Part shown: positions 47,447-64,000 of the stretch, in pieces
Layout: each line of letters starts with the position of its first letter
Numbering within the stretch: position 1 is the first letter of the stretch
Source of the DNA: a virus
DNA length: 64,000 nucleotides
IMG/VR virus record: IMGVR_UViG_3300045988_175328
Span: 32,001 to 96,000 of that record
Direction: 5' to 3' (one strand)
The notes under the pieces: generated by a model
Told to the model about the DNA's origin: nothing
What the model saw: only the letters and a program-made list of their open reading frames with translations
Database searches by the model: none
Made by a program: the position numbers and the translations under genes

Positions 47447-47458
47447 AAGGTGATACAA

Positions 47459-48034
47459 ATGAGCAAAAAACACAGATTTGAAAAAAATCTAAAAAAAGAA
47501 ATATTGGAAAAAAAAGAGGAAATTACTGAGAATACTCAAGTTGAAGATTCTGATAAAAAAGAATATTTAATGGATGTTAATACTCCTAATGCAGCTGATC
47601 AATATGAAGAACCATCAGAAGATGAAGTTCCCGCTTTTTACGAAGAGGAAGATGATGATTACAGTATTGAAGATGTTGAACCATTAACAACAGAAAATAT
47701 TAATTATCTTAAATCTATCTATCCTAATTTAAAATTAACGATGATGGTTAATCAACCAATTGTATGGAAAACAATTCCTCGTAACGAATATCGATTAGCA
47801 TATGATCTAACAGAAGAGGAGAGAGAACATATTTCTAGTTTAGATCCTGCTAATCAAATTGCAGAATTAATGGAAATTCGAAATCAAAAGATTGTTACAT
47901 ATTTTGTATTGTTCCCATCTCGTCCAAGATTATTATATTTATTGGATCGATATAGTGGAATGATTCCGACATTAGCTGAAGAGATTCTTAAAGGATCTGG
48001 TTATTCCTTACAACAACCATCTATTGACTTGTAG
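47459..48034 (+). CDS. acidic protein, possible tail assembly chaperone (by position)
   Basis: ORF track 47450..48034; ATG 47459 after AAAGGTG. Shares a PI(V/F)(W/Y)K..(P/T)R.E(Y/H) segment with the next ORF. Confidence 0.45.
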   Translation: MSKKHRFEKNLKKEILEKKEEITENTQVEDSDKKEYLMDVNTPNAADQYEEPSEDEVPAFYEEEDDDYSIEDVEPLTTENINYLKSIYPNLKLTMMVNQPIVWKTIPRNEYRLAYDLTEEEREHISSLDPANQIAELMEIRNQKIVTYFVLFPSRPRLLYLLDRYSGMIPTLAEEILKGSGYSLQQPSIDL

Positions 48035-48043
48035 GAGGCTCTT

Positions 48044-48881: not shown

Positions 48882-51800
48882 ATGGCAGATTTATTAGAAA
48901 AACAATCTATGGAAGATATGTTTTTCGAAAATGCTTTGGAGAACGTAGCAGTTGTTGGTGGTATAGCAACTGCTGCGTTTTCTTTGTATAAAAGTGATTT
49001 CGGAAAGCAATTAATCGGACATATTGATCCACTATTCGGAAGAATAAGTGAACGTCTTTCATATATGAATAGACATGGCGATAATCCTTTTACTTTTGAA
49101 GAATTAGGAGTTGGCTTTAAAATGGCTAAGTCTAATTATATCGGGGAAGGATTTGATCCATTAACAAGATCAGCATCACTAGATAATAAAGAAGCAATGA
49201 ATTTAATTCATGAGATAGCTCAAAATCATGACTATTATTCTTTCTCTAGAAATGCTGGTCAAGCAATGTATTACAATTACTTTGAAGAGTCAATGCTCAA
49301 TCAAATGGACAGTATGGGATTCGGTCTTAGTGAAAAAGGTAGAGAAGCATTATCTGTAACGTTTAAAGATAATGCTCACACTTTCATTGATTTTGACAAA
49401 GGACTTCTTAAAACAGAAGGCGAAGCGGCTCTTTCAAATCTTGCGAACGGCAATCTTCCAAGATATCTTTCAGAAGCAGATTCTAAAGCATTACGTGGAT
49501 ATATTGATTCCACAATAAATCAAGACATTCCAGTTGCCTTTAATCCATTTGCTAATTTTGTCTCACAAGATGAAATTCAAAATACATTAATGAGTATGCA
49601 TAAGGATTATAAAGAGCAATGGAAGTCTCAAATAGATGTATTAATTTCTAAAGCTGAAGAAGAAACAAAAACTTCTAATTACCACTACATTACTTTAGGA
49701 GAATACGAAAATTTTGGCCGAGGACTTGAAAGTGACGATAATCAGATTCGCATTAATGTTAAACGAAATGGTGGCGAACAAAATCTAACATTAAATGAAA
49801 TTGCTACTGATTCTATTTTCGATGCTTATAATTTAAAAGATTTACCTATTTCTAAATCTAGATTTGTAAAAGATAGTGCTACTCCTGGAGCAAATAATCC
49901 TGATGATATAATCGATCATTCTTTTACAAAAAGAATGTTAGATGGTGTTAAAAGTTTTGCTAAAAGTACACTTCCATATAAACTAGCTGGTATTGAAGGA
50001 TTTCAGTCATCTTCTCCTCGTGGAATTGAGTCAATAACAAAAGAAGCCTTTCAACCATATATTCAAAAAACATTAGGCAAAACTGACTATGTTAGAATAG
50101 GCCAATCTTTATACCAGAAAGATAGTACTACTGGCGGTTATAAAAAAGTTGAACTTGAAGGAGGATCTTGGTATAAAGGTAATGCTACTAACATAGAGAG
50201 TCAATCTATTGCTATGGGTTATGCTGATCCAAAATCAGCAGAACGAACTAATTGGAAATCTAGAGGTGAATCTCCGCATAGAAGACATACGACTCTTCAT
50301 GGAAATAATATCGATATACTTAGAAATGCTGATTTAAGTAAAATGACGAATGAAGATTTATCTTATCGGATATTCTCTTTAAAAAATCATTTAGATATTG
50401 TTGACCATGATATTGATACCCAGACATTCCGTAAGATGGTTAATGGAGTCCTTGACCAATTTGGAGATCAACTCTCTCCAGAGCATAATCATTATCTAAC
50501 AGGACTTGTTAATTTACTTTCAACTGGTTCTCCTGAAGAGTTAAGAACTGGACTTAACGGTATATCTAGTATACTTCCGAGAAATTCATCTTCTATTATT
50601 AAGCCGACAAAAGAATTTAATAATCTTTTAGAGAGAACTAAAAAAGGAGAATATTTAGGAACTAAAATAGTTGAAGATGCTATCGGTGTTACCGAAAAAG
50701 GCAATGAGAGAATAAAGGGCCCGCTTGAAAAAACTCAAAGTTTAATAAAAGAAGAAATAATTAATAGCATTCTTCAAGGGAATATATCTTTAGGGCCACA
50801 ATATTCTGGCAGAGTAACTGATCCTGATTCTTTTAGGGCTCTTCTTCATCATTTAACATTTAATATCAATGACGGATTTAACATAGGTAAGGGTGATGCC
50901 GAAAAAATAAGCAGATTGGCTTCAACAGTATTTATTAAAAACTTTGATCAACTTCCTGAAATTATTTCTGAAGGTTCTGCTTTAAAATTAGCAGGAGGAC
51001 CGAGAGCTCTTGCTGAAAAGGTTCAAAAACTTTTAAATGGTAGCCCTACACTAAATGAATCATTAGCATATTCTATGGGGACAGGCGTTGATCGTAAAGT
51101 TCTTTTTGAATCTACAAAAGTAAAACAAGACTATGTGTATCAAAAGAACACAACACCATTTCAAAAATTAGCTGATCTTAGTCCAGATAAAATTGCTGAT
51201 TATATTTTAGGCGGCGGATTATTTGATACTGCGAAATCAATATTTGCTGGCTCAACTTTTGATCTAAGTAAATCTGCTAAATATTTAAAACATGTAAATC
51301 TTGAAGAAATTGCTCCAGATTTTAAAACAGGAAATTCTTTATCTGAAATGAATTCTGTTGGAGCGTATGCGTATCGAATTGCTAATCGAATTAATGACCA
51401 ATTAAATGAAACTTCATTATCTACTTTTTTTGGCGTTATTAATGAGAACTTCTCAGACTGGGCTTCTAAGTATATTAATCTTAGAGTACCATTAGGGTTA
51501 CATAGAGCTGATGCGACAACAACATTAGGTATTACAAAAAATCTAATGTTAAAAAGATTACTTCCTGCTAGTATTCTTTTGTCTCAAGCTGAATGGGCCG
51601 ATGATACATTTGATATTAATGAAAATTTTCAAACTGGCTTAGCGAATATGGATCTTGGATTTAGACGTATTGTCGATGGATTAGGTATGACTAATTTTAT
51701 GAAACGACATAAAATGTTAAATCCATTAGCAGAATATATTTCTGGAGATTATACATTATTCCAGAGTTATAATGAACGTTTGGACTATTATCAGAATGGA

Positions 51801-54800
51801 TATGATCCAATTCGATCTGGTCGATATTGGGTATGGGGTTCTACAAATGAATTCAGAGGTTCTTCTGTTTCATATTGGGAGCCGAATAGCTTAAGACTTG
51901 CGACATCTGATTACAAGATGAAGTCTATATATGGTAGCTATTGGAATAAATATTTACATTCACCAATACCAACATTAACAAATCCATTGTCACCATTATT
52001 CTATTTAGCTAATCCATATTGGGTTGAAGAGCAACATTCTGAAGATAGACCATATTTAAAATCAGGCCCGTTATTTGAAAAGAACTCTTTGCAAGGCGCA
52101 TTGTTTAATTGGAATATTGGAGAATTAATTAAACCTGAACGAAGCTACCATGATGACAGAATGTGGTTCGGTCGAGACGTATATGCTGTCATGTATAATA
52201 TGCGACAACAAGAAATGGAAAAACGTGACGATAATCGATACATCATTTTCCAAAATGGTCGCTTAGGCATATATGATTTTAATTCATTCCAAAATCCAAA
52301 CATGCAAGAGTCTATTAATAATGAAGATGCTGAAGAGTATAGAGAGCAAGCTTCTCCTGTATTCACAAGCGCAGCTGATTATTCAAATGCATTAAGTTCT
52401 GATGGTTCATTAGATACTGATGAATATCAATCATTAGCTAGTGGATCTACTTCTGGCGCAGGTGGTTTTGGTATTCGAAGTGCAATTACTTCTATGAATA
52501 AAAGTGTCGCAGGCGAATATATTCAACAACGAATCAGAAGAAATAATAGCACAAAAACTGTTCATGAATTATTAGAGAATGCTGGATATTATAATGATAT
52601 AATGAACTCTAATGCAGACTCTATTGTAAATCAATCTATTAATGCTGTTCGTGCAGTATCTGGTATTTATGGATATGCTGGTGTTAAATTCTTCGGAGAA
52701 AATGAAAAGACAAGAATAGCTGATGCTGGAGACATTACTTCATTCGCAAGATCTTTCTGGGATATGGGATTTGGCGGATTAGGCTCCGAAGGGGCCGAAA
52801 TTGCCCGTCGTTTCATTCCTGAGTTTTCAAGACGTCATAGAATTAATCCATTAATGAATGAGCTTGCTGAAAAACATCCTTGGCTACCTGAAAAATTCTT
52901 CCGAGGAGATCCATATGCAAGTATGCCTATGGGAGAGGCAAGGCTGCCAGGTACCGGATATGAAGCTTTAAATCAGTTACATCCTGATCAGTTTGGACAA
53001 TATGGTGTTATTGATCGATATAAGATCTTAGCAGATATTGCGCCTAATTCTGAAGAATATAAATATTATAAGACCTTAATTAAGATGCTTGAGGATCCAG
53101 AGGCTAAGAAAATATATAATGATACCGAAGAGAGAATTAAGCATCAAAATAAAAGATACGATTTCTTCAATTATAAGTTTTTAGGCAAAACGACTAAAGG
53201 TGAAGAAGTCGGTATTGAAAGTATTCAAAGCAATGGTAAATTTACTATTGTTGGTGACGATAAGTTATATCAAATAGCCGGCGTTAAATTTAATACTCAA
53301 GGCGAAGAATCTAAAAAAATTCTTCAAGAAATATTAAATGAAGGCTCTAAGGTAATGATGTATACCGATGATATAGAAATATCTGAAAATAATAAAGTAA
53401 ATGCTCCAATAAAAGCAGCATTATTTTTAGATGGTCAAAATATCTCGGAGATGCTTATCGACCACGGACTTGCTCAGTACGATAGAGAAGATTCTTCAGC
53501 TGCTGGAGCAAAGGCTAATTATAATCCACTTTCAAGAGCACTAGGTACTGGATTTGAGTTCTTAACACATTTAAATATACCTATTATTCATTCTCAATTT
53601 TTAAGAATCAACTCTTCTTTAGAGTCTTACGAACAGAATCAAATATATGGTTCTGGATTTGAATCTTGGGATCATCCTATTGATAGTATGATTATGCCTT
53701 CGGTCTACCAAGGAAAAACTGGTTTATTCCTTGATTTCTTAGGAGAATCAGCTTATCGTTATCATAATGCTATTGAAGATGGATTTATTTCTGCATCAAA
53801 AACTGGCCGAAGATTTGCTAAGCATGCATATCGATATTTAGATAGACCAACATTGATTGGGCATATTTTTAGTAGGTTTGCATACTCTGGAGAAAATCGA
53901 GAGCATTATGCGAATGCAACAACTGCATTAACCAGATATGCCGGTAATGCATTTTCATTGTATACTTCTTTACAAGATCCATTTTATGCTGCTTTTGCGT
54001 GGGGAAGATTTGGATATGATACGTCAGCATTCTTCAATCCATTTGAAAAATTAATTGTTGGTACAAATGAAGATTGGGAAAATAAAATTTTCTCTTATCA
54101 AAAATTGTCTGATCAGTTCTTTAGAGATTACGACGAGACATTAAGAACTTCTATTGCATTTACAGAAGCAAGACCTATTGTTAATACATTAACAGATGAT
54201 TTATATCGTGGAGCATATGAATTAAGTTCTGATATTAATACTCCTGGTTTAATAAAAAATACTTTAGATACTCTTCTTCACACAAGACCCTCAAGAATAG
54301 TTACAGGTTTGGCTTCTGCAGGTATTGGTGTTGCTTTATCTATTGCAAATTACAATTCAGTAACAGAAACGTTTGGTCAAGATTCTATATTTATCCCTGA
54401 TCATGTTAAAGAACGATGGGATGTCGAAGAATATTTTGATCGGTTAAGATATATTAAATATATGTCATTATATGCTCAAGCTGCAAAAATAGCTATTAAT
54501 GAAGAAGATACAGATGTAGCTGCTTTATATCGACATCAAGATTATGTCCGCGAACATGAAAGTGACGATATATCATTATCTAATATGATCGCATCTGTTC
54601 TTGTTTCTGGTTCTCCGATTGAGGATGGCATATCTCAATTCAAACGATTTATGTTCGGGACAATGAATGAAGATATGACAGTTTTATCGGCTGATAAATT
54701 TACAGAACTTGCTATTATGTATAAGCAAGCTGCCGAGAATACTATTTATGGATTAACAGAAGATTCTGAATATTCAGATATCATTAGAGCATTACCAGAT

Positions 54801-55310
54801 TATGAAAAGGAATTTTTCGAAGATTTCTCTGGAGTTCTTGATGAAGAAGAGCGAGATAAAATACTTAGAGAAGTTTCTCCTTCTTTAAAAAAAGCATTAA
54901 AGCTTGTTTGGTATGGAGAGCTTGAAGATCAAATGCCAAATGAATTATATTTCTCGACTCATAATTTGCCATCTGTATTCTGGGAGGGTTGGCAAGCCGA
55001 TAAAGATATGTCAGATATTAGAGCTAAAGTTATTTACAACGAAGGTCTTAGCTATGCAGATTATGGCATTTTTGCATCTAAATATGAAGAACCAAATGTT
55101 CAAGACGCTCCAAATATTGATGACATAAAAGATTCTGACGACCCAATTACCGTAAAGGCTAAACTAGGTATTTTAATGAAAGGATACAATTTATCTTCTG
55201 ATGATGTCGACGTCTATAAGACATCTGATCCAAGTACCCTTTCAGTCATTCAAGATACAGTTTCTGTATTAGGATATAAGATAGAAACTGCATTAAGCAA
55301 AGTTTTTTAA
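48882..55310 (+). CDS. 2142-aa virion-module protein (tape-measure candidate by position only)
   Basis: Uninterrupted ORF with an N-terminal hydrophobic segment VAVVGGIATAAFSLY. Follows two chaperone-like ORFs. No catalytic motif recognised. Confidence 0.5.
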   Translation: MADLLEKQSMEDMFFENALENVAVVGGIATAAFSLYKSDFGKQLIGHIDPLFGRISERLSYMNRHGDNPFTFEELGVGFKMAKSNYIGEGFDPLTRSASLDNKEAMNLIHEIAQNHDYYSFSRNAGQAMYYNYFEESMLNQMDSMGFGLSEKGREALSVTFKDNAHTFIDFDKGLLKTEGEAALSNLANGNLPRYLSEADSKALRGYIDSTINQDIPVAFNPFANFVSQDEIQNTLMSMHKDYKEQWKSQIDVLISKAEEETKTSNYHYITLGEYENFGRGLESDDNQIRINVKRNGGEQNLTLNEIATDSIFDAYNLKDLPISKSRFVKDSATPGANNPDDIIDHSFTKRMLDGVKSFAKSTLPYKLAGIEGFQSSSPRGIESITKEAFQPYIQKTLGKTDYVRIGQSLYQKDSTTGGYKKVELEGGSWYKGNATNIESQSIAMGYADPKSAERTNWKSRGESPHRRHTTLHGNNIDILRNADLSKMTNEDLSYRIFSLKNHLDIVDHDIDTQTFRKMVNGVLDQFGDQLSPEHNHYLTGLVNLLSTGSPEELRTGLNGISSILPRNSSSIIKPTKEFNNLLERTKKGEYLGTKIVEDAIGVTEKGNERIKGPLEKTQSLIKEEIINSILQGNISLGPQYSGRVTDPDSFRALLHHLTFNINDGFNIGKGDAEKISRLASTVFIKNFDQLPEIISEGSALKLAGGPRALAEKVQKLLNGSPTLNESLAYSMGTGVDRKVLFESTKVKQDYVYQKNTTPFQKLADLSPDKIADYILGGGLFDTAKSIFAGSTFDLSKSAKYLKHVNLEEIAPDFKTGNSLSEMNSVGAYAYRIANRINDQLNETSLSTFFGVINENFSDWASKYINLRVPLGLHRADATTTLGITKNLMLKRLLPASILLSQAEWADDTFDINENFQTGLANMDLGFRRIVDGLGMTNFMKRHKMLNPLAEYISGDYTLFQSYNERLDYYQNGYDPIRSGRYWVWGSTNEFRGSSVSYWEPNSLRLATSDYKMKSIYGSYWNKYLHSPIPTLTNPLSPLFYLANPYWVEEQHSEDRPYLKSGPLFEKNSLQGALFNWNIGELIKPERSYHDDRMWFGRDVYAVMYNMRQQEMEKRDDNRYIIFQNGRLGIYDFNSFQNPNMQESINNEDAEEYREQASPVFTSAADYSNALSSDGSLDTDEYQSLASGSTSGAGGFGIRSAITSMNKSVAGEYIQQRIRRNNSTKTVHELLENAGYYNDIMNSNADSIVNQSINAVRAVSGIYGYAGVKFFGENEKTRIADAGDITSFARSFWDMGFGGLGSEGAEIARRFIPEFSRRHRINPLMNELAEKHPWLPEKFFRGDPYASMPMGEARLPGTGYEALNQLHPDQFGQYGVIDRYKILADIAPNSEEYKYYKTLIKMLEDPEAKKIYNDTEERIKHQNKRYDFFNYKFLGKTTKGEEVGIESIQSNGKFTIVGDDKLYQIAGVKFNTQGEESKKILQEILNEGSKVMMYTDDIEISENNKVNAPIKAALFLDGQNISEMLIDHGLAQYDREDSSAAGAKANYNPLSRALGTGFEFLTHLNIPIIHSQFLRINSSLESYEQNQIYGSGFESWDHPIDSMIMPSVYQGKTGLFLDFLGESAYRYHNAIEDGFISASKTGRRFAKHAYRYLDRPTLIGHIFSRFAYSGENREHYANATTALTRYAGNAFSLYTSLQDPFYAAFAWGRFGYDTSAFFNPFEKLIVGTNEDWENKIFSYQKLSDQFFRDYDETLRTSIAFTEARPIVNTLTDDLYRGAYELSSDINTPGLIKNTLDTLLHTRPSRIVTGLASAGIGVALSIANYNSVTETFGQDSIFIPDHVKERWDVEEYFDRLRYIKYMSLYAQAAKIAINEEDTDVAALYRHQDYVREHESDDISLSNMIASVLVSGSPIEDGISQFKRFMFGTMNEDMTVLSADKFTELAIMYKQAAENTIYGLTEDSEYSDIIRALPDYEKEFFEDFSGVLDEEERDKILREVSPSLKKALKLVWYGELEDQMPNELYFSTHNLPSVFWEGWQADKDMSDIRAKVIYNEGLSYADYGIFASKYEEPNVQDAPNIDDIKDSDDPITVKAKLGILMKGYNLSSDDVDVYKTSDPSTLSVIQDTVSVLGYKIETALSKVF

Positions 55311-55322
55311 AGGAAATAATTA

Positions 55323-58300
55323 ATGGCGACAAGCAATATTATCCTTAGAGGGAGAAATAATCATTTTGATCCATCAGGTATTTTTAGACAAGACTACAAG
55401 CTTTATCTTAGTTACGTAAAAACAATTCATAACTATATTGAAGAGAATAATAATGCAACTGGATTAACAGGTAGGCCTACAGAGTTTTTAGACCATAAAG
55501 GCAATCATGTAAAAATTAATGATGTTAATGAAACTATTAATATCTACGATCATAGACTTTCTGGAACAAATGACGCAAAATTAGTTAAAAGCATGTTTCA
55601 GAATAATCTATTCGAAAGAATGGCGACTGAGAATACTACTGTATATGATATTGAAACTCTCGTTCCTTTAGTTGGAAAAACAGGTGAATTATTCCAAGAT
55701 TCAATTTACCAATATTCGTCTCAGAATATAATCGACGGCGAAGTTGTTGCCGGAAAAAATTATTATCTTGGGTTAAATCAAAAGCAAGTAGAATTTTTAA
55801 AAAAATATTATCAGAATTTTGATGCGAATTTAACTAAAGATAAAGCTGCTTTATCTTCATATAAAAGTATAATACGTGCAGGTCTATATAAAGACGATCT
55901 TCTTGCTGGGAAAGCTCTTGGCGCAATTCCAACAGAGCTTCTTAACCCAATTGGCAAAAACCAAATTAAAGAATCTAAAGAAGCTTTTATAAAAGGGTTA
56001 AATGCTCTTTATGAGTTACATAATCAAAATCAAAAATTAAGTGGGGAAATTACTCTTTTAGATGGTTCAAAGAAAACTGTTCAGGGGAATACATATATAC
56101 TTCATCAAATTTTTGATGACCTTTTGTCTAATAATTTAAGAACTGCATATAATGGCTACAATTTTGATGAAAGAAAAATGTATGAGATTGCTCATCTTAA
56201 TGGAGATTCTGCATTAATTCAAAAAGCAGAAAAGTTGATGGCCACACAAAGCCAACGATTCTTTGATATTCAACCTGCTATCAGGTTGTTTAAAGAATTG
56301 GGATTAGGATCTGAGTTTAAAGCGTTAGGTATCGATAATCCATATGCGAAAGAAGGTCCGAATGGATCTATTTTACCTACAGCTAGAAATACACAATTAG
56401 GAACGATGGTCAATTATCTTCCTGAGCATGTAAGAAAAAGCCTTGGCCTAATGAATGCCGATGCATTCCATGATGCAACTGTCGATACATTTGCATATGC
56501 CAATGTGTTAAATTATAATTCTAAACGGTTCTCTGATATGGTTAGAACATTGCATGACCAAATTCAGAATCAAGAAAATACAATGATTCCCAATAGACAA
56601 GTATCATTCTCTAGCAATGCATCACTCGATTCTTATCATTTGATGAGAGTTAATCGTTCGATGTACAATGATAATATGCCTATGATGATCGTAAATGCTA
56701 ATGAAGAAAACTCTCTTCATGTACAAAAATTAGGACATACATTTAAATTTAATACAGCCAATCCAGATAAGCCAGGATATTTTGCAACAAATGAATCATT
56801 AGCAGGTATCTTACGAAAAGGTATGAATATTGCTATCGGCGAAAATGTAAGAAGTTTTAATGTAGATGATACGATTAAAGAGCAATTCTATAATGCAACT
56901 GGTCATATGCTTGCTGAAGATGAACTTGTGATGGTTCCTTTTAAAATCCATGATACAAAAGGATTTTATGGTAATCAATATATCGTTTTGCCGAAAGGTC
57001 AAATGTCTGAAGTCTTGCAAAGAATGGGTACATTTTTTGGAGGTGCTCAACTTGATGACTCTGGAAAAATTGTTCAAACATCAAATGTAACAAGAGATGG
57101 TGTTAATTCAATGTTTGAGCAAATAGGATCTCTTAAAAAGTATCAGACTGGCACTGCTCAACAAGCTGTAGAAAATTATCTTAAAGACAGCACTAAGTAT
57201 CAATTGAATAATTATCTTTTCCAACAATTAGATAAAACTGATATCAATAGAGCTAAAATTATGAAGGATCTTGCTAGAATAAAAGATGACAAAGTACGGA
57301 AACTTTATCTTCAAATATCGCAAGAAATGATCAATAACAATATCGATAAAGATCAAGCTTTAGAATCTATTGCTAGAATTAATGGTGTTACAAGTAAAGA
57401 TCCTTTGTATTTAAAAGCTCATAGTTTTATCGGTACTCTTCAAGAGCAACAAAATATTTATTTTTCTGGTAATCGTGCAGCTAATTCTGGCACACCATTG
57501 TTTAGATCAGCTGCTTGGTCTACGCATGAGTTATTAGAACGAACAGATAATAAACTTATCGATACATTCGCTTCTACTTTCTTAGACGTTGCTGCTAAGC
57601 ATGGATATCAAAATTCAAAAGGAGAATTTTTCTTTAACAGCGATTCTAATGTAATTGCTGGAAAATTAGTAAATGTTCTTTTTCAAGAAATGAGAAGAAA
57701 TAATCAGACATTAAAGACTTCTATTTTAAGTCTTTCTCCCGATGAATTAAAAAAATTCTTTTACGATAAAATTACTCCACAAAATGGGTTAGACCTTAAT
57801 GCAAGAAACACAGAAGAAACAGCATCAAAAATTCTTTCTTTTGCGACACGAGCAGCTAAGGGCTCTCGTGGATCAGATAATATTCCAGCGAATCAAATAA
57901 AAAATGTTTTATACGATATCGCTAAGTTCATGAAAAACAATAAGATTATCGATTCTAATAAAGATAACTTATTATATAATATGAAAGATATTGTCGATAA
58001 TCGTTTAGATACGCCTGAGTTAATATCTGAATATATTGCAAAAGATTTAGCAAGTTCTTTTGAAAGACAATATTCTAAGGGTAAATTACCTGATTGGTAT
58101 AATAGTACTTTTGTAAATTATCGTGGTGGTAAAGTAACTCTGGGCGAGAATACTCTTGGGAACTTTAGAAGAATGGCCTCCAAAATAACTGGCGATTTCG
58201 TATATAATCCAAAAGATTCTAGAAAAATATTAAAAGATTTCATGATGTCTGACGCGATAAAAGATCAATTAGCTAGATACTATGATGATAAAGAGCTAGG

Positions 58301-61300
58301 TCATTTTATTGCGAATTCTGCGAATGAAACAATCACTAATTTAGCAGATACTATTATCGATAACTTAGATTTAGCTAATATGACAATTCATTCTTCTCAT
58401 GGTGTAGTCCTTGAGGATTCAGTTGGCCGAAAATTTAATTTAACTAATTCTATCCCAATGGTTGTTTTTGAAGAAGGCGTTCCCTATATAAAAGTTGGCG
58501 GAAATACTTATAGCATTAGTTTGGCAACTCGATATTTAGAATCTCGTGATTTTGAAGGCAAGAAAACTTCTGGATATATTTCACTTGGTGTTGAACAGCT
58601 TGAGCCATATAATGAAATAGCTGCTAGGATATCTAAAACAAAAGTTAATAAATTTGGTTCACTTTCTGCTGTTCAATTAGGATTAAATTCTGTTACTAGA
58701 GAGATATATGAGAATACAACTTTTAACAGTCCTAATAATAGAAAATCTAATGCCGGAAGTTATAATTTTGTAGCAAAGAGTGCTAGATCTTCTGGGTCAA
58801 TGTATACAACTACGAATATAGGATTTAAGCCTATTCTAAAAGATCTTGTTCCTGTGTTTAATGATCTTATTGACAATAAAGTTGTAAGTGAATCTTTCAT
58901 TACGGATCATCTTATTAACTCTACAGGATCTACTGATTCTGCAGAAGCGCTCGAAAAACTTGGATTTGTACCTAAAGATCCAAATATGAGAGGAGCATCT
59001 GGTACCAATTATCTTGAAATGATCTTTAACAAAGATCAGTCTCAATATCCTGCAAATCAAAGAGCTATTCAAGAATTTTTCTCTAAACCTTTTGAAAATC
59101 CTGTACTACTTTCTAATGGAAAACAAGCAAATAATTTTGGAGAATTAATTCTTTTAAATTCTTCGGCTACAGGAGCTCATCGTTATACTATAGATGCCAA
59201 TAAAGATCCTATTTTCATTATAGAAAAACAGCAAGTTGATGTTCCCTATAGTTCTTTAGCTAAAGGATTTTATAGTACTGAAGCAAGAAAATCTTCTTTT
59301 GGTCAAATCTCTTTTACTTTATCTGCATCTAATTCAAATAAACAAGTTGGTCCAGGTTCAGATGTTGCATCTAGTCGTTATATCCAGAATCATTTACAAC
59401 AAATGTCAACGATAATGCCTGAGTATATTGATCAAATTAGCGACTTAACTGGTCTTGATTACGGAAGTTTAAAAGATCAGCCAACATTAAGAAGATTTGA
59501 TGACAGATCTGTAGAACATTCAGTAAATGCTAATATGCTGATTTCTTCTCACTATGAAGACATTTCTACATTAGAAAAAGAGATTAGTAGCTCTACAGAT
59601 ACAGTGTTAGAAAAATATGATTTAATGTCTGGCAAAAGTCTCAGCTTCTACAATGATGCGCCTGATAATTTAAAAAATAAAATTCATGGACATCTTAGAA
59701 ATGTAGCAGAAGGATCTGCATCTGTTGCTCAAGAACTTGCTGATATTCACCATATGACAGAAACGTCTGCTGGTGTACAAATGATTAAATTAAATGAGAC
59801 TAGCATTAATGATAAATATATAAAAAATATAATGCCGGTTTTCTTTAATCATGAAACAGGCCAGTACGAAGCATTAGAAGAAGCGAAGCTTGCATATTTT
59901 AAGGATCTTAACGTTATTGCAAAAAGAGATTCTAGAAGTAATAGCGATATTTTCTATGATAAATCTAAAGGCGATGCTTTTGGCAAGGTAGTCTTTAAAG
60001 ATAGCAATACAGGCAAACTTTTAACTCCTAAAGAAATTGCAGAAATATTAAATAAATCTTTAAATGAAAAAGTAGGCGTCGTAGATTTTGACGACATTAC
60101 TCATATATTTAAAGAATTGATTCATCAAAATATATACAGCTACTTTAATGCTAAATCTGTCGGAAGTCAAACAACAATGAAACTTGTAGCCGATAGTACA
60201 AAACATGTTGCTTCCACAATGGGCATGGGCATCGGAACTGTTTTCAATGGTGTTGCCGATATTTTTGAAAGAAATAACTTTGGTCATTATGTTGGCGAAC
60301 TCATGGATTTTGATGCTATGAAACTTCTTCTTCATGGCGATATTGACGTAGCTACTAAAGTATTCGCTTCAGAAGCAGTTAAAAACGGTCGATTCGTTCC
60401 GAGAAGATTTTCTGGAAAACGTCTTTATAAAGTATTAGAAGACGTAAAAATAAAAAATGCTTTAAGTACTAATGCCAAAGGGTTTAAAAATTATGTCGAT
60501 AAAGCATTACCGAATTTTTTAATCGATATTAAAGACAAAAATGGAAATGTAACGCATCAAGAAAAATTAGTCGACTTAAAAGCAAACGCTAGAAAAAATA
60601 TGAGAAAGCGGATGTTCGGCAATGAAAATATTGGTAAAGACTTAAAGTATCTAGATGATTTTGTTAAATACCAAAAAGTCCAAGACTATATGGCAATGGA
60701 GCAAAGTCTTACGCATCAGTTAAGAGCTATTAATGTTTTAAAGACTAACATAAATGACGGCATATCATTCATGAATCGGAATAACGATATCTACAAAGAA
60801 ATCGGATCCATGAATTTAAAAGATGTAAAAGATCTTGCTTCTAAAATACGAACTGATGTTAATTTGCAACAAACACATCCTCACATGTATGAGTTCTTGC
60901 GGAAACATTCAGTTCAAGATCTTGAAAATCTTTTCCATTCATTTAAGAATATAGAACAATTAAATGCTCAAAACCCATTGCTATATAATATATTAAAGAA
61001 TAGTCCAGAAGATTTAGATAAATATATTGGCAATATTAAAGGTGTCATGTATGGCTTTGAAAAAGCGACAGCAGGGACACCTAGAATTGGGAATATCGCT
61101 CAAACTTCTAACTTAGTTAATTCAGCAACAGATTTAAATGAGATGAAAGAAGTTGGTGTTAGAATCAGCAAATTCTTTGATCGCATCAAAAAAGCTGTTT
61201 CTAATCCTCAAGGGAAAAATCAAAAAGCTGGTGAATTAGATAGATTCTTCTTTGGTGAATTAAAAGTAAAAGATTCTGACGGAAAATTTAAAACTTTTTT

Positions 61301-64000
61301 TGAACGAGAAGAGCATAATATCCTCAATTATGATTTTTACAATTCTGATGAAATGCGGCAAATGGTCTCAGTTCAAGATAAAGAGCTTAGAGCAATGAAA
61401 CGAATGTTCTCTGAATTTCAAAAGTCCAAAGGAAAAGACATTCCTATCTCTGTCAATAAAAATGATATTGACGACTATTTAATGCAAATCGATTACCTTC
61501 ATGGAATATTGCCATATTATAATGTTGGAACTGTTCGAGAACTTTTTGCCGATGGAGCATTAGAAGATATTGTAAGAGGCAACATTTTAGCTCTTCGTAG
61601 ATCTCTTTCGCATTTATCTGGAAAGGCTAATTTGTCGGCCGAACAATTGCTTTTCCGAGAAAGATATATAGTAACAGAAATATTGAATCAACATTATTTC
61701 GATATCAATGGAGAAAAAGGCTTAGTAATGGGTATTTCTAATTCTCCAGAAGATATAAAAAGGGCAGAACCAATTACTTTAATTCGAAGAATGATCGATA
61801 ATACAATGCATCATGCTTCTGGCTCTCAAGAGATAAAAGCTAAATTTAATGGTGACCAACAAAAGATAAGAGAGGCTATCGTTGATTATTTAAATCAATC
61901 TGATTGGTTTAATATAGAACAGAATGCTGGCCATAAAATATTTGAAATAGATCCTTCAGATCCAACTAAAGTAAAAATTGAAGGTAAACATCTTAGAATT
62001 ACAACAAAAACATTAGGAGAGTATAAAGCTGATGGTGGATCATTAAATGTGATTCATCATGTAACTGGTGACGATGAATTAATTAATCCTATCGCTACAA
62101 TGTTCCAAGAATTAAATGAAAAAGTTTTTGGATATAGTCTTGGCCGTGAGATAAAGAAAAAAAGATCTGGTAATGTTCATGCTGTAGTGTCCGATTCCGA
62201 GTCAATGCATGAAATGAATTATCTTCTTTCCAATATAATTGGAACGCATCAGCAAACTCAATTTTTCCCATATGCTCATTCTCATGGCTCCAAGTCTGTT
62301 ATTGGTGCGGTTAGCGGAAGCGAACAAGATTCTCTAATGGCTATGTCACTAAATGAAAAAGCATTAGAGACTATCCATAAGGCATTGCCAAATGATCAAA
62401 AAGTAAGAGAAGCTTATCTTGAAATGATCAAATTACAAAACGAAAAAAGAACAAAAATAAAAGAAGATTTACTTGCTGCGAATCAAGGCATGACAGAAGC
62501 ACAAGCTCAAAAAGAAGCCGATAAATTTGGACTTGCTTTTCATCCATTTAATTCTTTCAAAAATGCAGTCGAAGATCCAGAAGTTCGTATGAAGCTTTTT
62601 GGTCAAGAAGAAATGAAAGCTGGAACATCTGTAAGAATGATTAAATTCGGCACACAGGATATAACTAAATCTGATAATTACAAGAAATTAGATGAAGTTT
62701 CTCAAAAAATAGCACATGATCTTCATTATAAAAATAATAGATTCTCAAAAGAATGGCTTCATTTAAAACGAGATGCTATTTCTTCTATGGCCGCAATTGT
62801 TTACGAAGAAGATAAAGGCGCTCATAGTGTTGCCCAAAAAAGTGCTCCCATTACTCTTTTCAAGGAACTAATGAGGAATCCAGACAGCCCAGAAGCTATA
62901 GCTTATGCGCAGTTCTCAAGAGATTCTAGAGATATCTCTGAGAAGATAAGTCATGGACACGATGTCGATACTGGACAAAGATACCATTTAAATATAGATG
63001 GAGAACGTGTATATATTAATGTCCCAAGCTATAAAGCAAACGATGAAACTGACAATTTGTTTACTCAAATTGAAACAAATTATCGTCGATATAATGAAAG
63101 TATCGAAGAGATGCAAAATGCTACTGACTCTTATGAAAAAGCTGAATTTGCAAGGAATGCTTCGCAAAATGCAGAGATATTAAGAAACTCCATAGAGAAA
63201 CTTAATCAAAATACGAAAAACGATGCTTATAAAAAAGGGAAAATAAGACAAACCAATTTCTACGAAATGGGTATTCGTCGTTCTGGTGAAGCAGAATATC
63301 TAGCAATGGACGCATTCGATACTAAGAATAAAATTTTCTCAAGAGGAAAAGATGCAAAAGGCAACGAGATCGTTAAAACAGTTCAAGATGTTATCGATGA
63401 AGGATACACTCCAGCTATAGCAGAAGTTAGCGAACAGTTCTTTGAAGATGTTGGTATTTTAGATAAAAGAATGTCTAAAGCTGATCGAGCTGCAAAATTA
63501 GCGAAATTAGAAGAAGAAGGTACAGTAATGGCCATAAGCCGTTATCCTTATAACTATCAGAAGTCTATTAGTTTTGCTAAAGTATATTTAAACAAAGATA
63601 TGTCCGATAAACATATTCGCTCTAATCATTTCTTACAAGTAAAAATGAATGCCGATAACGATGGTGACTTATTATATGCAACTAATTTAGCCCAAGGCAA
63701 TTTAAAGAAAGCCTTTAAAGGGATGTCTGAAGATGCTTTAGCATATGCTACAGCTGCCGACAACTCTATCGGATATCTTCAAACTACTTTGTATAATGAC
63801 AAGGGCGAGCTTCTTGATAGCCTAAAAAATGATGCGTTTGAAGCGAATATCATGACTCATTATAAAAAAATGATGAAGGATATTTCGACCGACGAATTTG
63901 GCGAATTGAAATCTACAGCGCAATTGACACAGAACGCAGGTGCGCCATATCATTCAATTAAGAATTTAAATAACTTACTTGTTAGTTCTGAAATTGTAGA
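55323..64000 (+). CDS. giant ORF (at least 2892 codons, 3' end outside the window) with an N-terminal DEDDh-like exonuclease signature and a beta-prime-like DPBB motif NADNDGD: candidate single-polypeptide (virion?) RNA polymerase
   Basis: Missing from the ORF track, presumably because no stop occurs in the window. The frame was spot-checked open at 55.3, 57.0, 58.8, 60.0, 62.3 and 63.9 kb. ATG 55323 follows AAAGGAA. DIE at 55647-55655, YNFDE about 56160, HDATVD 56469-56486. ISRYPYNYQKSISFAKVYL..HFLQVKMNADNDGDLLYA (NADNDGD = 63648-63668) parallels NRAPTLHRLGIQAFEP..NADFDGDQMAVH of beta-prime. Confidence 0.7.
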   Translation, partial: MATSNIILRGRNNHFDPSGIFRQDYKLYLSYVKTIHNYIEENNNATGLTGRPTEFLDHKGNHVKINDVNETINIYDHRLSGTNDAKLVKSMFQNNLFERMATENTTVYDIETLVPLVGKTGELFQDSIYQYSSQNIIDGEVVAGKNYYLGLNQKQVEFLKKYYQNFDANLTKDKAALSSYKSIIRAGLYKDDLLAGKALGAIPTELLNPIGKNQIKESKEAFIKGLNALYELHNQNQKLSGEITLLDGSKKTVQGNTYILHQIFDDLLSNNLRTAYNGYNFDERKMYEIAHLNGDSALIQKAEKLMATQSQRFFDIQPAIRLFKELGLGSEFKALGIDNPYAKEGPNGSILPTARNTQLGTMVNYLPEHVRKSLGLMNADAFHDATVDTFAYANVLNYNSKRFSDMVRTLHDQIQNQENTMIPNRQVSFSSNASLDSYHLMRVNRSMYNDNMPMMIVNANEENSLHVQKLGHTFKFNTANPDKPGYFATNESLAGILRKGMNIAIGENVRSFNVDDTIKEQFYNATGHMLAEDELVMVPFKIHDTKGFYGNQYIVLPKGQMSEVLQRMGTFFGGAQLDDSGKIVQTSNVTRDGVNSMFEQIGSLKKYQTGTAQQAVENYLKDSTKYQLNNYLFQQLDKTDINRAKIMKDLARIKDDKVRKLYLQISQEMINNNIDKDQALESIARINGVTSKDPLYLKAHSFIGTLQEQQNIYFSGNRAANSGTPLFRSAAWSTHELLERTDNKLIDTFASTFLDVAAKHGYQNSKGEFFFNSDSNVIAGKLVNVLFQEMRRNNQTLKTSILSLSPDELKKFFYDKITPQNGLDLNARNTEETASKILSFATRAAKGSRGSDNIPANQIKNVLYDIAKFMKNNKIIDSNKDNLLYNMKDIVDNRLDTPELISEYIAKDLASSFERQYSKGKLPDWYNSTFVNYRGGKVTLGENTLGNFRRMASKITGDFVYNPKDSRKILKDFMMSDAIKDQLARYYDDKELGHFIANSANETITNLADTIIDNLDLANMTIHSSHGVVLEDSVGRKFNLTNSIPMVVFEEGVPYIKVGGNTYSISLATRYLESRDFEGKKTSGYISLGVEQLEPYNEIAARISKTKVNKFGSLSAVQLGLNSVTREIYENTTFNSPNNRKSNAGSYNFVAKSARSSGSMYTTTNIGFKPILKDLVPVFNDLIDNKVVSESFITDHLINSTGSTDSAEALEKLGFVPKDPNMRGASGTNYLEMIFNKDQSQYPANQRAIQEFFSKPFENPVLLSNGKQANNFGELILLNSSATGAHRYTIDANKDPIFIIEKQQVDVPYSSLAKGFYSTEARKSSFGQISFTLSASNSNKQVGPGSDVASSRYIQNHLQQMSTIMPEYIDQISDLTGLDYGSLKDQPTLRRFDDRSVEHSVNANMLISSHYEDISTLEKEISSSTDTVLEKYDLMSGKSLSFYNDAPDNLKNKIHGHLRNVAEGSASVAQELADIHHMTETSAGVQMIKLNETSINDKYIKNIMPVFFNHETGQYEALEEAKLAYFKDLNVIAKRDSRSNSDIFYDKSKGDAFGKVVFKDSNTGKLLTPKEIAEILNKSLNEKVGVVDFDDITHIFKELIHQNIYSYFNAKSVGSQTTMKLVADSTKHVASTMGMGIGTVFNGVADIFERNNFGHYVGELMDFDAMKLLLHGDIDVATKVFASEAVKNGRFVPRRFSGKRLYKVLEDVKIKNALSTNAKGFKNYVDKALPNFLIDIKDKNGNVTHQEKLVDLKANARKNMRKRMFGNENIGKDLKYLDDFVKYQKVQDYMAMEQSLTHQLRAINVLKTNINDGISFMNRNNDIYKEIGSMNLKDVKDLASKIRTDVNLQQTHPHMYEFLRKHSVQDLENLFHSFKNIEQLNAQNPLLYNILKNSPEDLDKYIGNIKGVMYGFEKATAGTPRIGNIAQTSNLVNSATDLNEMKEVGVRISKFFDRIKKAVSNPQGKNQKAGELDRFFFGELKVKDSDGKFKTFFEREEHNILNYDFYNSDEMRQMVSVQDKELRAMKRMFSEFQKSKGKDIPISVNKNDIDDYLMQIDYLHGILPYYNVGTVRELFADGALEDIVRGNILALRRSLSHLSGKANLSAEQLLFRERYIVTEILNQHYFDINGEKGLVMGISNSPEDIKRAEPITLIRRMIDNTMHHASGSQEIKAKFNGDQQKIREAIVDYLNQSDWFNIEQNAGHKIFEIDPSDPTKVKIEGKHLRITTKTLGEYKADGGSLNVIHHVTGDDELINPIATMFQELNEKVFGYSLGREIKKKRSGNVHAVVSDSESMHEMNYLLSNIIGTHQQTQFFPYAHSHGSKSVIGAVSGSEQDSLMAMSLNEKALETIHKALPNDQKVREAYLEMIKLQNEKRTKIKEDLLAANQGMTEAQAQKEADKFGLAFHPFNSFKNAVEDPEVRMKLFGQEEMKAGTSVRMIKFGTQDITKSDNYKKLDEVSQKIAHDLHYKNNRFSKEWLHLKRDAISSMAAIVYEEDKGAHSVAQKSAPITLFKELMRNPDSPEAIAYAQFSRDSRDISEKISHGHDVDTGQRYHLNIDGERVYINVPSYKANDETDNLFTQIETNYRRYNESIEEMQNATDSYEKAEFARNASQNAEILRNSIEKLNQNTKNDAYKKGKIRQTNFYEMGIRRSGEAEYLAMDAFDTKNKIFSRGKDAKGNEIVKTVQDVIDEGYTPAIAEVSEQFFEDVGILDKRMSKADRAAKLAKLEEEGTVMAISRYPYNYQKSISFAKVYLNKDMSDKHIRSNHFLQVKMNADNDGDLLYATNLAQGNLKKAFKGMSEDALAYATAADNSIGYLQTTLYNDKGELLDSLKNDAFEANIMTHYKKMMKDISTDEFGELKSTAQLTQNAGAPYHSIKNLNNLLVSSEIV

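What the first reader, a model, noticed from the sequence alone, without database searches (positions are those of the whole stretch)
55323..64000. Giant ORF (over 2890 codons, missed by the ORF track) with a beta-prime-like NADNDGD double-psi beta-barrel motif
Seen: the frame starting at ATG 55323 has no stop up to the window end. At residues ~2740-2790 the segment VMAISRYPYNYQKSISFAKVYLNKDMSDKHIRSNHFLQVKMNADNDGDLLYA mirrors the catalytic DPBB of multisubunit RNAP beta-prime (NRAPTLHRLGIQAF..NADFDGDQMAVH), including the R-x-P start and the metal-binding Asp triad. Established: single-polypeptide two-barrel RNAPs exist in phages (crAss-like virion RNAP, YonO-type) and are very divergent. Inference: a huge, probably virion-delivered, RNA polymerase in a contractile-tailed phage. 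The second (beta-like) barrel may lie beyond the window.
Basis: partly seen in the sequence, partly recalled or inferred. Interest (0 to 1): 0.8.

Follow-up and report, generated by a model that had tools for sequence, protein, structure and literature searches.

The report
Giant tail protein with RNA-polymerase catalytic motif
A 3,287-residue protein of an uncultured jumbo phage sits where the tail tape measure gene normally lies and carries a conserved copy of the catalytic barrel of cellular RNA polymerases, so the phage may inject its own polymerase through its tail, but only one of the two barrels such an enzyme needs could be detected.

Summary
The frame from ATG 55323 is open to the window end (2,892 codons). 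Near-identical contigs show a 3,287-aa protein on ~225-kb phage genomes.

The R-x-P...NADNDGD segment (residues 2740-2782, nt 63540-63668) is invariant in every relative found, down to about 20-27% identity. A family profile searched against all PDB sequences ranks jumbo-phage RNA polymerase beta' subunits first (E=0.01), aligned in register. hhalign against phage beta' gives P=1.5e-4. Foldseek on a low-confidence model ranks RNA polymerase largest subunits first, without significance.

The main new result is context. The tail module is collinear with Bacillus phage 0305phi8-36. The flanking giant genes match gp145 (3e-44) and the baseplate hub gp147 (5e-55). The finding therefore occupies the slot of gp146, annotated as a hypothetical tape measure protein and detected in virions by mass spectrometry.

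The nearest precedent is the tape-measure-fused virion polymerase of Thermus phage P23-45, but no sequence relationship to it was found.

Not found: a second barrel, a bridge helix, or any match in the two neighbouring giant genes. The N-terminus carries invariant DEDDh exonuclease motifs. No public source that names a family member calls it a polymerase or a tape measure.

The parts
55323..64000 (+). Giant ORF ('giant 2'). 2,892 codons lie inside the window. It would end near nt 65186, since the full protein is 3,287 aa in the 98%-identical P0001.
55620..56522 (+). N-terminal DEDDh exonuclease-like (RNase H-like) domain, residues ~100-400. Exo I is D109-I-E-T (55647-55658), Exo II is N277-G-Y-N-F-D282 (56151-56168), Exo III is H383-D-A-T-V-D388 (56469-56486).
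   Evidence: All three motifs are invariant across both clades. Pfam RNase_H_2 hits homolog P0005 at E=1.6e-4, just above the curated cut-off. The top PDB profile hits are archaeal PolB exonuclease domains aligned at Exo II, at a non-significant E~1. NCBI names one family member 'ribonuclease H-like domain-containing protein'.
59640..60302 (+). Conserved middle block, residues ~1440-1660 (EGSA, K..FGKV, K.VG....K). Function unknown. I tested it as a candidate beta-like barrel and found no support.
   Evidence: Conserved between clades. No relevant PDB hit, AlphaFold pLDDT 41.6, hhalign against a beta profile found nothing.
62973..63452 (+). Conserved block just upstream of the catalytic barrel, residues ~2551-2710. 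It has a beta hairpin, a long helical hairpin, then four short strands ending in the G-Y-T-P-A-I-A-E-V segment. It is the only positional candidate for a minimal second barrel, and this is unproven.
   Evidence: BLASTP and alignments. Secondary structure of the AlphaFold model, with block-mean pLDDT mostly 55-87 but a low-confidence stretch (<50) near the end of the helical hairpin. No match to beta-subunit profiles.
63519..63692 (+). Beta'-type double-psi beta-barrel (DPBB-A), residues 2733-2790. R2740-Y-P2742 is at 63540-63548 and the Asp triad N-A-D2778-N-D2780-G-D2782 at 63648-63668.
63924..63968 (+). Conserved segment L-T-Q-N-A-G-A-P-Y-H-S-I-K-N-L, residues 2868-2882, about 90 residues after the triad. 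By eye it resembles a bridge helix, but profile comparison did not support this.
   Evidence: A2872, G2873, Y2876 and K2880 are invariant. hhalign against a beta' C-terminal (bridge helix and trigger loop) profile found nothing.
48882..55310 (+). 'Giant 1' (2,142 aa), homolog of 0305phi8-36 gp145, a virion structural protein by mass spectrometry. It is the left anchor of the synteny.
   Evidence: BLASTP 2.6e-44, 2.6e-31 and 1.8e-28 in collinear pieces. Annotation.
47450..48877 (+). Two ORFs (47450-48034 and 48044-48877) homologous to the 0305phi8-36 tail chaperonins gp143 and gp144.
   Evidence: BLASTP 1.7e-6, 2.2e-9 and 3.3e-9
43429..45132 (+). Homolog of the tail tube paralog gp141 and the tube protein gp140.
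   Evidence: BLASTP 1.2e-31 and 7e-10
34891..37926 (+). Tail sheath protein (1,011 aa).
   Evidence: PHROG 16991 at 2.9e-55. BLASTP to gp139 at 7e-21.

Best explanation
The ORF encodes the tape-measure-slot virion protein of an uncultured ~225-kb contractile-tailed jumbo phage related to Bacillus phage 0305phi8-36. Three modules are embedded in this 3,287-residue protein:
- an N-terminal DEDDh exonuclease-like domain;
- at residues ~2550-2900, a divergent two-barrel-type RNA polymerase active centre, whose beta'-like barrel keeps the R-x-P strand and the Mg-binding DxDGD triad;
- a C-terminal hydrophobic segment plus a small conserved domain.

Proposed mechanism, which is inferred rather than shown: the protein is assembled into the tail with the other tail-lumen and baseplate-hub proteins. 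On sheath contraction it is expelled into the cell envelope and cytoplasm ahead of or with the DNA. Its polymerase module then transcribes the first-entering phage genes independently of the host enzyme, as the tape-measure-fused gp96 of Thermus phage P23-45 does.

Shown here: the ORF, the family, the conservation, the beta'-type similarity and the tail-module position. Inferred: presence in the virion, ejection, polymerase activity, and the existence of a second barrel too divergent to detect.
For: 1. The catalytic signature is conserved. R2740, P2742, Y2745, S2748, I2765, D2778, D2780 and D2782 are invariant in 9 sequences from at least 4 lineages at 22-25% identity over the aligned segment. 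The motif variants are NADNDGD, KADHDGD, KLDYDGD and KADADED.
2. A profile of this region searched against 177,635 PDB sequences ranks the AR9 RNA polymerase beta' first (7s01_d and 7s00_d, E=0.01). phiKZ gp55 is also listed (E=0.42). Both align in register from R-x-P to DxDGD.
3. hhalign against eight jumbo-phage beta' N-terminal subunits gives 71 columns, 27% identity and P=1.5e-4, again in register.
4. In the AlphaFold model the region is a strand-rich block. Foldseek's top PDB hits are RNA polymerase largest subunits (Pol I A190 at 6.9e-3, E. coli beta' at 7.3e-3, Pol IV NRPD1 with prob 0.96). Other double-psi-barrel proteins follow: the p97 N domain, formate dehydrogenase and nitrate reductase.
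5. Synteny: sheath, tube paralog, gp142, chaperonins, gp145 homolog, this gene, then the gp147 baseplate-hub homolog. The slot occupant in 0305phi8-36, gp146, is annotated as a hypothetical tape measure protein and as a virion protein by mass spectrometry.
6. The same triad of giant genes is kept in the sister clades.
7. There is precedent. P23-45 gp96 and crAss gp66 were both recognised only by a DxDxD motif in a giant virion protein, and both proved to be active polymerases.
Against: - No second (beta-like) barrel, bridge helix or trigger loop was detected by profile comparison or by PDB profile searches of the other conserved blocks.
- Both structure models are of low confidence (pLDDT 54.6 and 41.6), and no Foldseek hit reaches E<=1e-3.
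- E=0.01 and P=1.5e-4 are suggestive rather than decisive. The hhalign comparison was targeted after the motif had been seen.
- The slot occupants in the cultured relatives (0305phi8-36 gp146 and its Moorella phage homolog) lack any DxDxD and show no significant similarity to this protein. The polymerase module is therefore not a general property of this slot.
- 0305phi8-36 instead has a separate YonO/RdRP-like polymerase, gp99, which is unrelated at sequence level.
- Virion presence is inferred from position only.
- The role of an exonuclease in a transcription enzyme is unexplained.
Confidence: 0.5

Rival explanations
1. Relic or repurposed single barrel. The protein is a tape-measure or ejection protein in which only a beta'-like barrel with its metal-binding loop survives. 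That barrel would serve a non-polymerase role, for example metal-dependent nucleic-acid binding or cleavage, or a structural role. There would be no second barrel and no RNA synthesis.
For: Only one barrel is detectable. The connector between the candidate upstream block and the barrel is at most ~25-45 residues, far shorter than the ~140-residue connector of gp66 and QDE-1. Cultured relatives do without the module in this slot.
Against: Strict invariance of all three Asp, the Gly and the R-x-P strand over at least 4 lineages points to retained catalysis. Beyond the region around the DxDxD motif, many two-barrel RNA polymerase families show no significant sequence similarity to one another, so the other barrel is hard to detect by sequence (PMC10770324). 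Failure to detect a second barrel is therefore the expected outcome even for a true polymerase.
Confidence: 0.25
2. Cell-wall-degrading barrel. The double-psi barrel is of the lytic transglycosylase, expansin or '3D' type often carried by tail and tape measure proteins, and its aspartates act on peptidoglycan.
For: Tape measure and hub proteins commonly carry muralytic domains. The neighbouring hub homolog is annotated as containing proteoglycan-degrading domains. The fold class is shared.
Against: No MltA, RlpA, expansin or 3D protein appears among the PDB profile hits or the top 50 Foldseek hits, whereas RNA polymerase beta' and largest subunits lead both lists. From general knowledge of these families, the NAD-x-DGD loop preceded by R-x-P at the RNA polymerase spacing is specific to polymerases.
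Confidence: 0.07
3. Two-barrel DNA polymerase or primase with a proofreading exonuclease. By analogy with archaeal PolD (two barrels plus an exonuclease subunit), the DEDDh domain and the barrel would act together on DNA, for example repairing or priming the injected genome end.
For: An invariant DEDDh exonuclease signature and a polymerase-type barrel co-occur in one chain in all clades. The exonuclease's nearest PDB matches are proofreading domains of B-family DNA polymerases, at a non-significant E~1.
Against: PolD does not appear among the profile or fold hits. The two domains are ~2,300 residues apart. The gene lies in the tail module, not the replication module.
Confidence: 0.08
4. Chance motif in a long low-complexity structural protein.
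For: The protein is very long, and D, N and G are common in it.
Against: The shuffle frequency is 2e-4 for the heptad alone. The motif is invariant across relatives at 22-25% identity. Independent profile hits to beta' align in register.
Confidence: 0.02

Closest known systems
Thermus phage P23-45 gp96, a tail-tape-measure-fused virion RNA polymerase (Chaban et al. 2024, PMC10770324)
   Same: Both are giant proteins in the tape-measure position that carry a DxDGD two-barrel-type catalytic motif. In both, the rest of the protein shows no detectable similarity to RNA polymerases. A hydrophobic or membrane segment lies elsewhere in the chain. In both, the connector before the catalytic barrel is short: gp96 is described as clamp-less and flat.
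   Different: P23-45 has a non-contractile tail and an ~84-kb genome, and its polymerase lies in the N-terminal 1,200 residues. Here the tail is contractile, the genome is ~225 kb, and the module lies at residues ~2550-2900 of 3,287. This protein has an extra N-terminal DEDDh exonuclease domain. No sequence match to gp96 or gp64 chains appeared in the PDB profile search. Activity, virion presence and the second barrel are proven for gp96 and unproven here.
Bacillus phage 0305phi8-36 gp146 (hypothetical tape measure protein, 2,537 aa, virion protein by mass spectrometry)
   Same: Same genomic slot, flanked on both sides by demonstrable homologs (gp141-gp145 upstream, gp147 hub downstream). Similar size. 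It contains a DIETTG exonuclease-like motif and a Gly/Ala-rich hydrophobic segment ~90 residues from the C-terminus, followed by GYxVNV.
   Different: No significant sequence similarity. It has no DxDxD motif. That phage instead encodes a separate YonO/RdRP-like polymerase, gp99, near its genome end.
Beta' N-terminal subunits of jumbo-phage multisubunit RNA polymerases (AR9, phiKZ gp55 and relatives)
   Same: These are the best sequence-profile matches to the catalytic barrel. They share R-N-P...D-(F/Y)-D-G-D at the same spacing.
   Different: Similarity covers only ~70 residues. No match was found to the remainder of beta', to beta, or to the bridge helix and trigger loop. Those enzymes are assembled from 4-5 separate small subunits, not embedded in a tail protein.
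crAss-like phage phi14:2 gp66 and N4 virion polymerase (giant ejected virion RNA polymerases)
   Same: Giant virion proteins whose polymerase core is a minority of the chain. gp66 was recognised only by its DxDxD motif.
   Different: Both come from short-tailed phages and are not in a tape-measure slot. N4's polymerase is of the unrelated T7-like class. gp66 has a ~140-residue connector and DFDID rather than DxDGD. No sequence similarity was detected.

Membership tests
Two-barrel (double-psi beta-barrel) RNA polymerase superfamily | Beta'-type barrel carrying the DxDxD metal-binding triad, preceded by the R-x-P strand | tested here: met
   Invariant R2740, P2742, D2778, D2780 and D2782. The top PDB profile hits are phage beta' subunits at E=0.01, in register. 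hhalign P=1.5e-4.
Two-barrel (double-psi beta-barrel) RNA polymerase superfamily | Predicted double-psi barrel fold for that segment | tested here: inconclusive
   The AlphaFold model has mean pLDDT 54.6. The strand block scores 55-85 but the catalytic loop is below 50. Foldseek's top hits are RNA polymerase largest subunits and other double-psi-barrel proteins, but none reaches E<=1e-3.
Two-barrel (double-psi beta-barrel) RNA polymerase superfamily | Second (beta-like) barrel supplying conserved basic residues, facing the first | tested here: inconclusive
   Not detected in this protein by hhalign of the full family alignment against a beta-subunit profile (E>=0.43), nor by PDB profile searches. 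Not detected in either neighbouring giant gene. The model of the candidate middle block is unusable (pLDDT 41.6). Beyond the DxDxD region, many two-barrel families share no detectable sequence similarity, so non-detection does not exclude a second barrel.
Two-barrel (double-psi beta-barrel) RNA polymerase superfamily | Bridge helix and trigger loop downstream of the catalytic barrel | tested here: inconclusive
   A conserved helical segment lies ~90 residues downstream. It has no profile match to a beta' C-terminal profile.
Two-barrel (double-psi beta-barrel) RNA polymerase superfamily | Template-dependent RNA synthesis | not testable with these tools
   Needs biochemistry.
Tail tape measure protein | Gene position downstream of the tube and tail chaperone genes and immediately upstream of the baseplate hub | tested here: met
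   BLASTP synteny with 0305phi8-36 gp139-gp147. The same order is kept in the sister clades. Caveat: the gp145 homolog lies between the chaperonins and this gene.
Tail tape measure protein | Sequence homology to an established tape measure protein | tested here: not met
   No Pfam or PHROG hit. No significant similarity to gp146. gp146 itself is only a 'hypothetical' tape measure protein.
Tail tape measure protein | Presence inside the tail of the virion, with length proportional to tail length | not testable with these tools
   Needs virion proteomics and microscopy.
YonO / cellular RdRP-like single-chain polymerases (Pfam PF05183) | Detectable similarity to the family profile or to a member | tested here: not met
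   No Pfam hit for any family member. hhalign, hmmsearch and BLASTP against 0305phi8-36 gp99 found nothing.
DEDDh (DnaQ-like) 3'-5' exonuclease | Exo I D-x-E, Exo II N-x-x-x-F-D and Exo III H-x-A-x-x-D, in order and conserved | tested here: met
   D109/E111, N277/D282 and H383/D388 are invariant across both clades.
DEDDh (DnaQ-like) 3'-5' exonuclease | Significant profile match to the fold family | tested here: inconclusive
   Pfam RNase_H_2 hits P0005 at E=1.6e-4 and 22.1 bits against a cut-off of 22, and P0058 at E=0.011. The window's own clade gives no hit. The top PDB hits are PolB exonuclease domains at E~1.

The most novel reading that the evidence does not exclude
A widespread family of uncultured, probably Clostridia-infecting, ~225-230-kb contractile-tailed phages has built a complete, clamp-less two-barrel RNA polymerase and a DEDDh exonuclease into its tape-measure-slot protein. 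Sheath contraction would then inject one polypeptide that measures the tail, degrades or processes nucleic acid, and starts phage transcription at the point of DNA entry. This would be an independent second origin of the tape-measure-polymerase fusion, and the first pairing of a two-barrel polymerase with an exonuclease in one chain.
Probability: 0.2. Interest if true: 0.85.

Novelty: new variant of a known kind. Interest (0 to 1): 0.68.

Why it matters
The authors of the 2024 P23-45 study call the fusion of a virion RNA polymerase to a tape measure protein 'a previously unsuspected association' (PMC10770324). My searches of the held paper library found no other described case.

A second case would show that coupling DNA entry to first-round transcription through the tail-lumen protein is a recurrent strategy rather than a curiosity. 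That case would be unrelated in sequence, sit in a contractile-tailed jumbo phage, place the module at the other end of the protein, and add an exonuclease.

The family is abundant in public metagenomes, with clusters of 119-423 member sequences. Where a public source gives a name, it is only 'hypothetical' or 'ribonuclease H-like'.

The family also offers a very divergent catalytic barrel for studying the minimal two-barrel polymerase. It gives a concrete, testable target: residues ~2400-3100 and the D2778/D2780/D2782 triad.

Tried and rejected
- Pfam and PHROG scans of the giant ORF, giant 1, giant 3 (window lineage) and homolog segments found nothing relevant.
- blastn and tblastn of the ORF against 50,697 phage records gave no match.
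- PDB profile searches with full-length alignments gave nothing; the signal is diluted.
- The search for homologous proteins with the region alignment A4 returned nothing, not even the query's own family. I treated this as a candidate-cap artefact. That search was wasted.
- By eye, the middle block (KGDAFGKV..., KLVADSTKH) looked like the beta-subunit GDK..RHG.KG and KL..V.DK.HAR motifs. I rejected this: no support from the PDB profile search, hmmsearch against E. coli RpoB or hhalign against a 7-sequence beta profile. The AlphaFold model was unusable.
- By eye, STAQLTQNAGAPYHSIKNL looked like a bridge helix. hhalign against a beta' C-terminal profile did not support it.
- The idea that the beta-like barrel is encoded in a neighbouring giant gene found no support. 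Giant 3 is a baseplate hub homolog and giant 1 a gp145 homolog.
- A relationship to the YonO-like gp99 of the related phage 0305phi8-36 was not found.
- Homology of the C-terminal hydrophobic module to the gp146 C-terminus aligns at the expected place but is not significant, at E 0.08-0.9.
- E. coli RpoC alone does not match the family profile. Only phage beta' subunits do.
- P0007 (493 aa, motif KADADED) comes from a 1.75-kb contig with the gene starting at nt 12. It is probably N-terminally truncated, so it says nothing about domain order.
Full report
**1. The observation**

The frame opening at ATG 55323 runs without a stop to nt 64000, giving 2,892 codons. The ORF lister skips it only because it leaves the window. 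ATG 55323 is the first start after an in-frame TAA at 55317-55319. It has an AGGA 9 nt upstream, and it follows the stop of the preceding 2,142-codon ORF by 12 nt.

Four full-length relatives exist in public assemblies, at 98%, 80%, 73% and 47% identity and 3,203-3,289 aa. All lie on contigs of about 222-225 kb where the assembly is long enough. The true protein is therefore ~3,287 aa, and ~395 residues lie past the window.

The quoted segment is present at residues 2735-2786. R-Y-P is at 2740-2742 and N-A-D-N-D-G-D at 2776-2782 (nt 63648-63668). The heptad pattern occurs in 0.02% of shuffles of this protein.

**2. The family**

Pfam, PHROGs, blastn and tblastn against phage records found nothing for the giant ORF. 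An exhaustive profile search of 1.84 billion representative proteins with the C-terminal 1,198 residues found only three further clusters:
- P0005, 2,582 aa, a collinear distant homolog;
- P0007, a 493-aa fragment from a 1.75-kb contig;
- P0006, 269 aa, which shares only the C-terminal hydrophobic segment and small domain.

Searching with P0005 gave 52 clusters of ~2,540-2,586 aa. The longer assemblies among them are ~225-234 kb, and the set includes members at 64% and 27% identity. The clusters hold up to 423 member sequences. Where a source gives a name, it is 'hypothetical protein' or, once, 'ribonuclease H-like domain-containing protein [Clostridiales bacterium]'.

Across both clades, at ~20% identity, the invariant positions fall into five blocks:
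- an N-terminal D-I-E-T / N-G-x-x-F-D / H-x-A-x-x-D set;
- a middle block (EGSA, K..FGKV, K...K...K);
- the segment G2733...R2740-x-P2742-x-x-Y-x-x-S...I2765-x-x-N...D2778-x-D-G-D2782;
- A-G-x-x-Y-x-x-x-K at 2872-2880 and E-x-x-L-S-x-K-N at 2941-2948;
- the C-terminal module.

The motif variants NADNDGD, KADHDGD, KLDYDGD and KADADED all keep the three aspartates.

**3. Is it an RNA-polymerase-type barrel?**

Three independent lines agree, each of modest strength.

First, a profile of residues 2437-3016 from nine family members was searched against every PDB sequence. It ranks the beta' subunit of the Bacillus phage AR9 RNA polymerase first (7s01_d and 7s00_d, E=0.01, 17.8 bits). phiKZ gp55 is also listed (E=0.42). 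Both alignments run in register from R-x-P to DxDGD.

Second, I collected eight jumbo-phage beta' N-terminal subunits from annotated genomes. hhalign of the family against them aligns 71 columns at 27% identity, P=1.5e-4, again in register.

Third, the AlphaFold model of this region is poor overall (mean pLDDT 54.6). It does have a strand-rich block at model residues 222-352 with block-mean pLDDT of about 55-85. Foldseek's best PDB matches are RNA polymerase largest subunits: Pol I A190 at 6.9e-3, E. coli beta' at 7.3e-3, and Pol IV NRPD1 with probability 0.96. Other double-psi-barrel proteins follow (p97 N domain, formate dehydrogenase, nitrate reductase). None reaches 1e-3. The viral library gave weaker hits of the same flavour.

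No lytic transglycosylase, expansin or PolD entry appears in either list. I conclude that the segment is a beta'-type catalytic barrel, with good but not conclusive support.

**4. What is missing**

In the solved single-chain two-barrel polymerases the order is beta-like barrel, connector, DxDxD barrel, bridge helix, trigger loop (PMC10770324; gp66).

I tested two candidates. The conserved middle block (residues ~1440-1660) looked to me like the beta-subunit lysine motifs. It found no support from a PDB profile search, from hmmsearch against E. coli RpoB, or from hhalign of the whole family against a seven-member beta profile (E>=0.43). Its AlphaFold model was unusable (pLDDT 41.6).

The second candidate is the block directly upstream of the barrel, residues 2551-2710. 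It has a hairpin, a long helical hairpin and four short strands. It is the only positional candidate and would imply a connector of only ~25-45 residues. Nothing confirms it.

A bridge-helix-like segment at 2864-2882 did not match a beta' C-terminal profile. Neither neighbouring giant gene matches beta or beta' profiles.

Non-detection is the norm for divergent members of this superfamily. gp66 and gp96 were both recognised only by the motif. The second barrel therefore remains unproven rather than excluded.

**5. Context: the decisive new information**

The window is a phage structural and replication region, all on one strand. It holds portal, protease, major capsid protein and a sheath, together with ribonucleotide reductase and a kinase-phosphatase-RNA-ligase fusion.

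The giant ORF is the middle one of three consecutive giant genes. In this lineage they are 2,142, 3,287 and ~3,600 aa. In the sister clades they are 2,067, 2,571 and 3,184 aa.

The third giant matches PHROG 20474 and, by tblastn, the baseplate hub gp147 of Bacillus phage 0305phi8-36 and relatives. Direct BLASTP of the window's tail module against the annotated 0305phi8-36 module shows collinear homology:
- sheath to gp139 (7e-21);
- 43429-45132 to the tube paralog gp141 (1e-31);
- 46787-47446 to gp142;
- 47450-48877 to the tail chaperonins gp143 and gp144;
- giant 1 to gp145 (3e-44, in three collinear pieces);
- giant 3 to gp147 (5e-55).

The finding therefore sits exactly in the slot of gp146, annotated 'hypothetical tape measure protein; identified as virion protein by mass spectrometry'.

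gp146 itself shows no significant similarity to this protein and has no DxDxD. The Moorella phage MTATph1 homolog of gp146 also lacks the motif. Both carry a D-(I/L)-E-T-T exonuclease-like motif.

0305phi8-36 has a separate RdRP/YonO-like polymerase, gp99, near its genome end. It is unrelated to this family at sequence level.

**6. Interpretation**

The best-supported reading is a tape-measure-slot virion protein that carries a divergent two-barrel-type polymerase centre, delivered into the cell on tail contraction to start phage transcription. Functionally this parallels P23-45 gp96 (PMC10770324).

It is not a member of that family. It differs in tail type, genome size and the position of the module in the chain, it has an added exonuclease domain, and there is no detectable sequence relationship. 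I put this reading at about 0.5.

The main rival, at about 0.25, is that only one barrel survives and serves another metal-dependent function. A muralytic barrel, a DNA-polymerase-like role coupled to the exonuclease, and chance are less likely.

The exonuclease domain has no explanation under the transcription model. It is the feature most likely to hide something new.

**7. Novelty and score**

The kind, a giant virion or tape-measure protein with an embedded two-barrel polymerase motif, is known from a single experimentally characterised case. This is a new variant of it, in a different and abundant phage lineage, with a different architecture and an extra nuclease. None of the public sources that name a family member annotates it as a polymerase or a tape measure, and my searches of the held paper library found no description of it. 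Interest is 0.68.

Noticed in passing
window 18605-18904, 19370-19585, 39684-40025, 42542-42883: Four group I introns score well above the Rfam gathering threshold (74-91 bits). Two flank the region between the intein-containing ORF (17454-18578) and the ORFs before the portal gene. Two lie between the sheath/tube genes and the tube-paralog ORF. Several structural or packaging genes here are probably split, so ORF-based calls there (for example 38883-39497 and 43429-45132) may be exons of larger genes.
   Followed up: partly
window 40165-41253 and 41605-42264: A TnpB/Cas12f-like transposase (OrfB_IS605 plus TNB domain, PHROG 506 at 8e-128) and an endonuclease ORF (PHROG 4645 'endonuclease' at 4.7e-31; only a sub-threshold Pfam LAGLIDADG_3 hit) sit between two of the group I introns, inside the tail gene block. 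They look like intron-borne or intron-associated mobile genes.
   Followed up: no
window 17454-18578 and 26232-27470: One ORF carries an intein splicing domain (Pfam PF14890, 2e-22). A 412-aa HNH endonuclease is inserted between the prohead protease and the capsid genes. With the introns, this phage carries an unusually heavy load of selfish elements in its structural module.
   Followed up: no
L001 19963 onward (immediately downstream of the window); L025 17742-27296: The third giant gene (~3,600 aa here, 3,184 aa in the sister clade) is a homolog of the 0305phi8-36 baseplate hub gp147. It is almost twice as long as gp147 (1,903 aa). The extra ~1,700 residues have no Pfam match.
   Followed up: partly
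L027 22624-30237 (0305phi8-36 gp146) and L028 8934-12863 (Moorella phage MTATph1 CDS0027): The tape-measure-slot proteins of the cultured relatives contain DnaQ-type Exo I motifs (LDIETTG at residue 1223, LDLETT at residue 870). In the Moorella protein an H-E-A-L-T-D Exo III-like motif lies ~180 residues later. An exonuclease domain may be a shared, unannotated feature of this slot across the lineage. The Moorella gene is interrupted by a transposase.
   Followed up: partly
P0001 residues ~3164-3287 (beyond the window); P0006: The C-terminal module, a Gly/Ala-rich hydrophobic segment plus a ~90-residue domain ending ...Y-L-S-N-M-F, also occurs in a 269-aa called protein (P0006, E=1.3e-7). Whether P0006 is a complete gene was not checked. 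If it is, the module is an independent unit, perhaps for membrane insertion or virion incorporation.
   Followed up: no
window 200-3451: A 1,083-aa protein combines an N-terminal phage tail lysozyme domain (3.7e-25) with a C-terminal M23 peptidase (2.8e-9). It lies far from the tail module, next to the nucleotide-metabolism genes.
   Followed up: no
window 9376-11589: A 737-aa fusion of an AAA_33 kinase-like domain, a metallophosphatase and a T4-type RNA ligase 1 domain. This is a complete tRNA/RNA repair cassette in one polypeptide.
   Followed up: no
window 4680-4753: A tRNA-Thr (anticodon TGT) was called by both ARAGORN and Rfam. It overlaps the start of a mechanically listed ORF (4646-5260).
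   Followed up: no
window 24934-24948: The only other D-x-D-G-D in the six-frame translation lies in the prohead protease ORF (HNDSDGD). It has no R-x-P upstream and is unrelated to the finding.
   Followed up: yes
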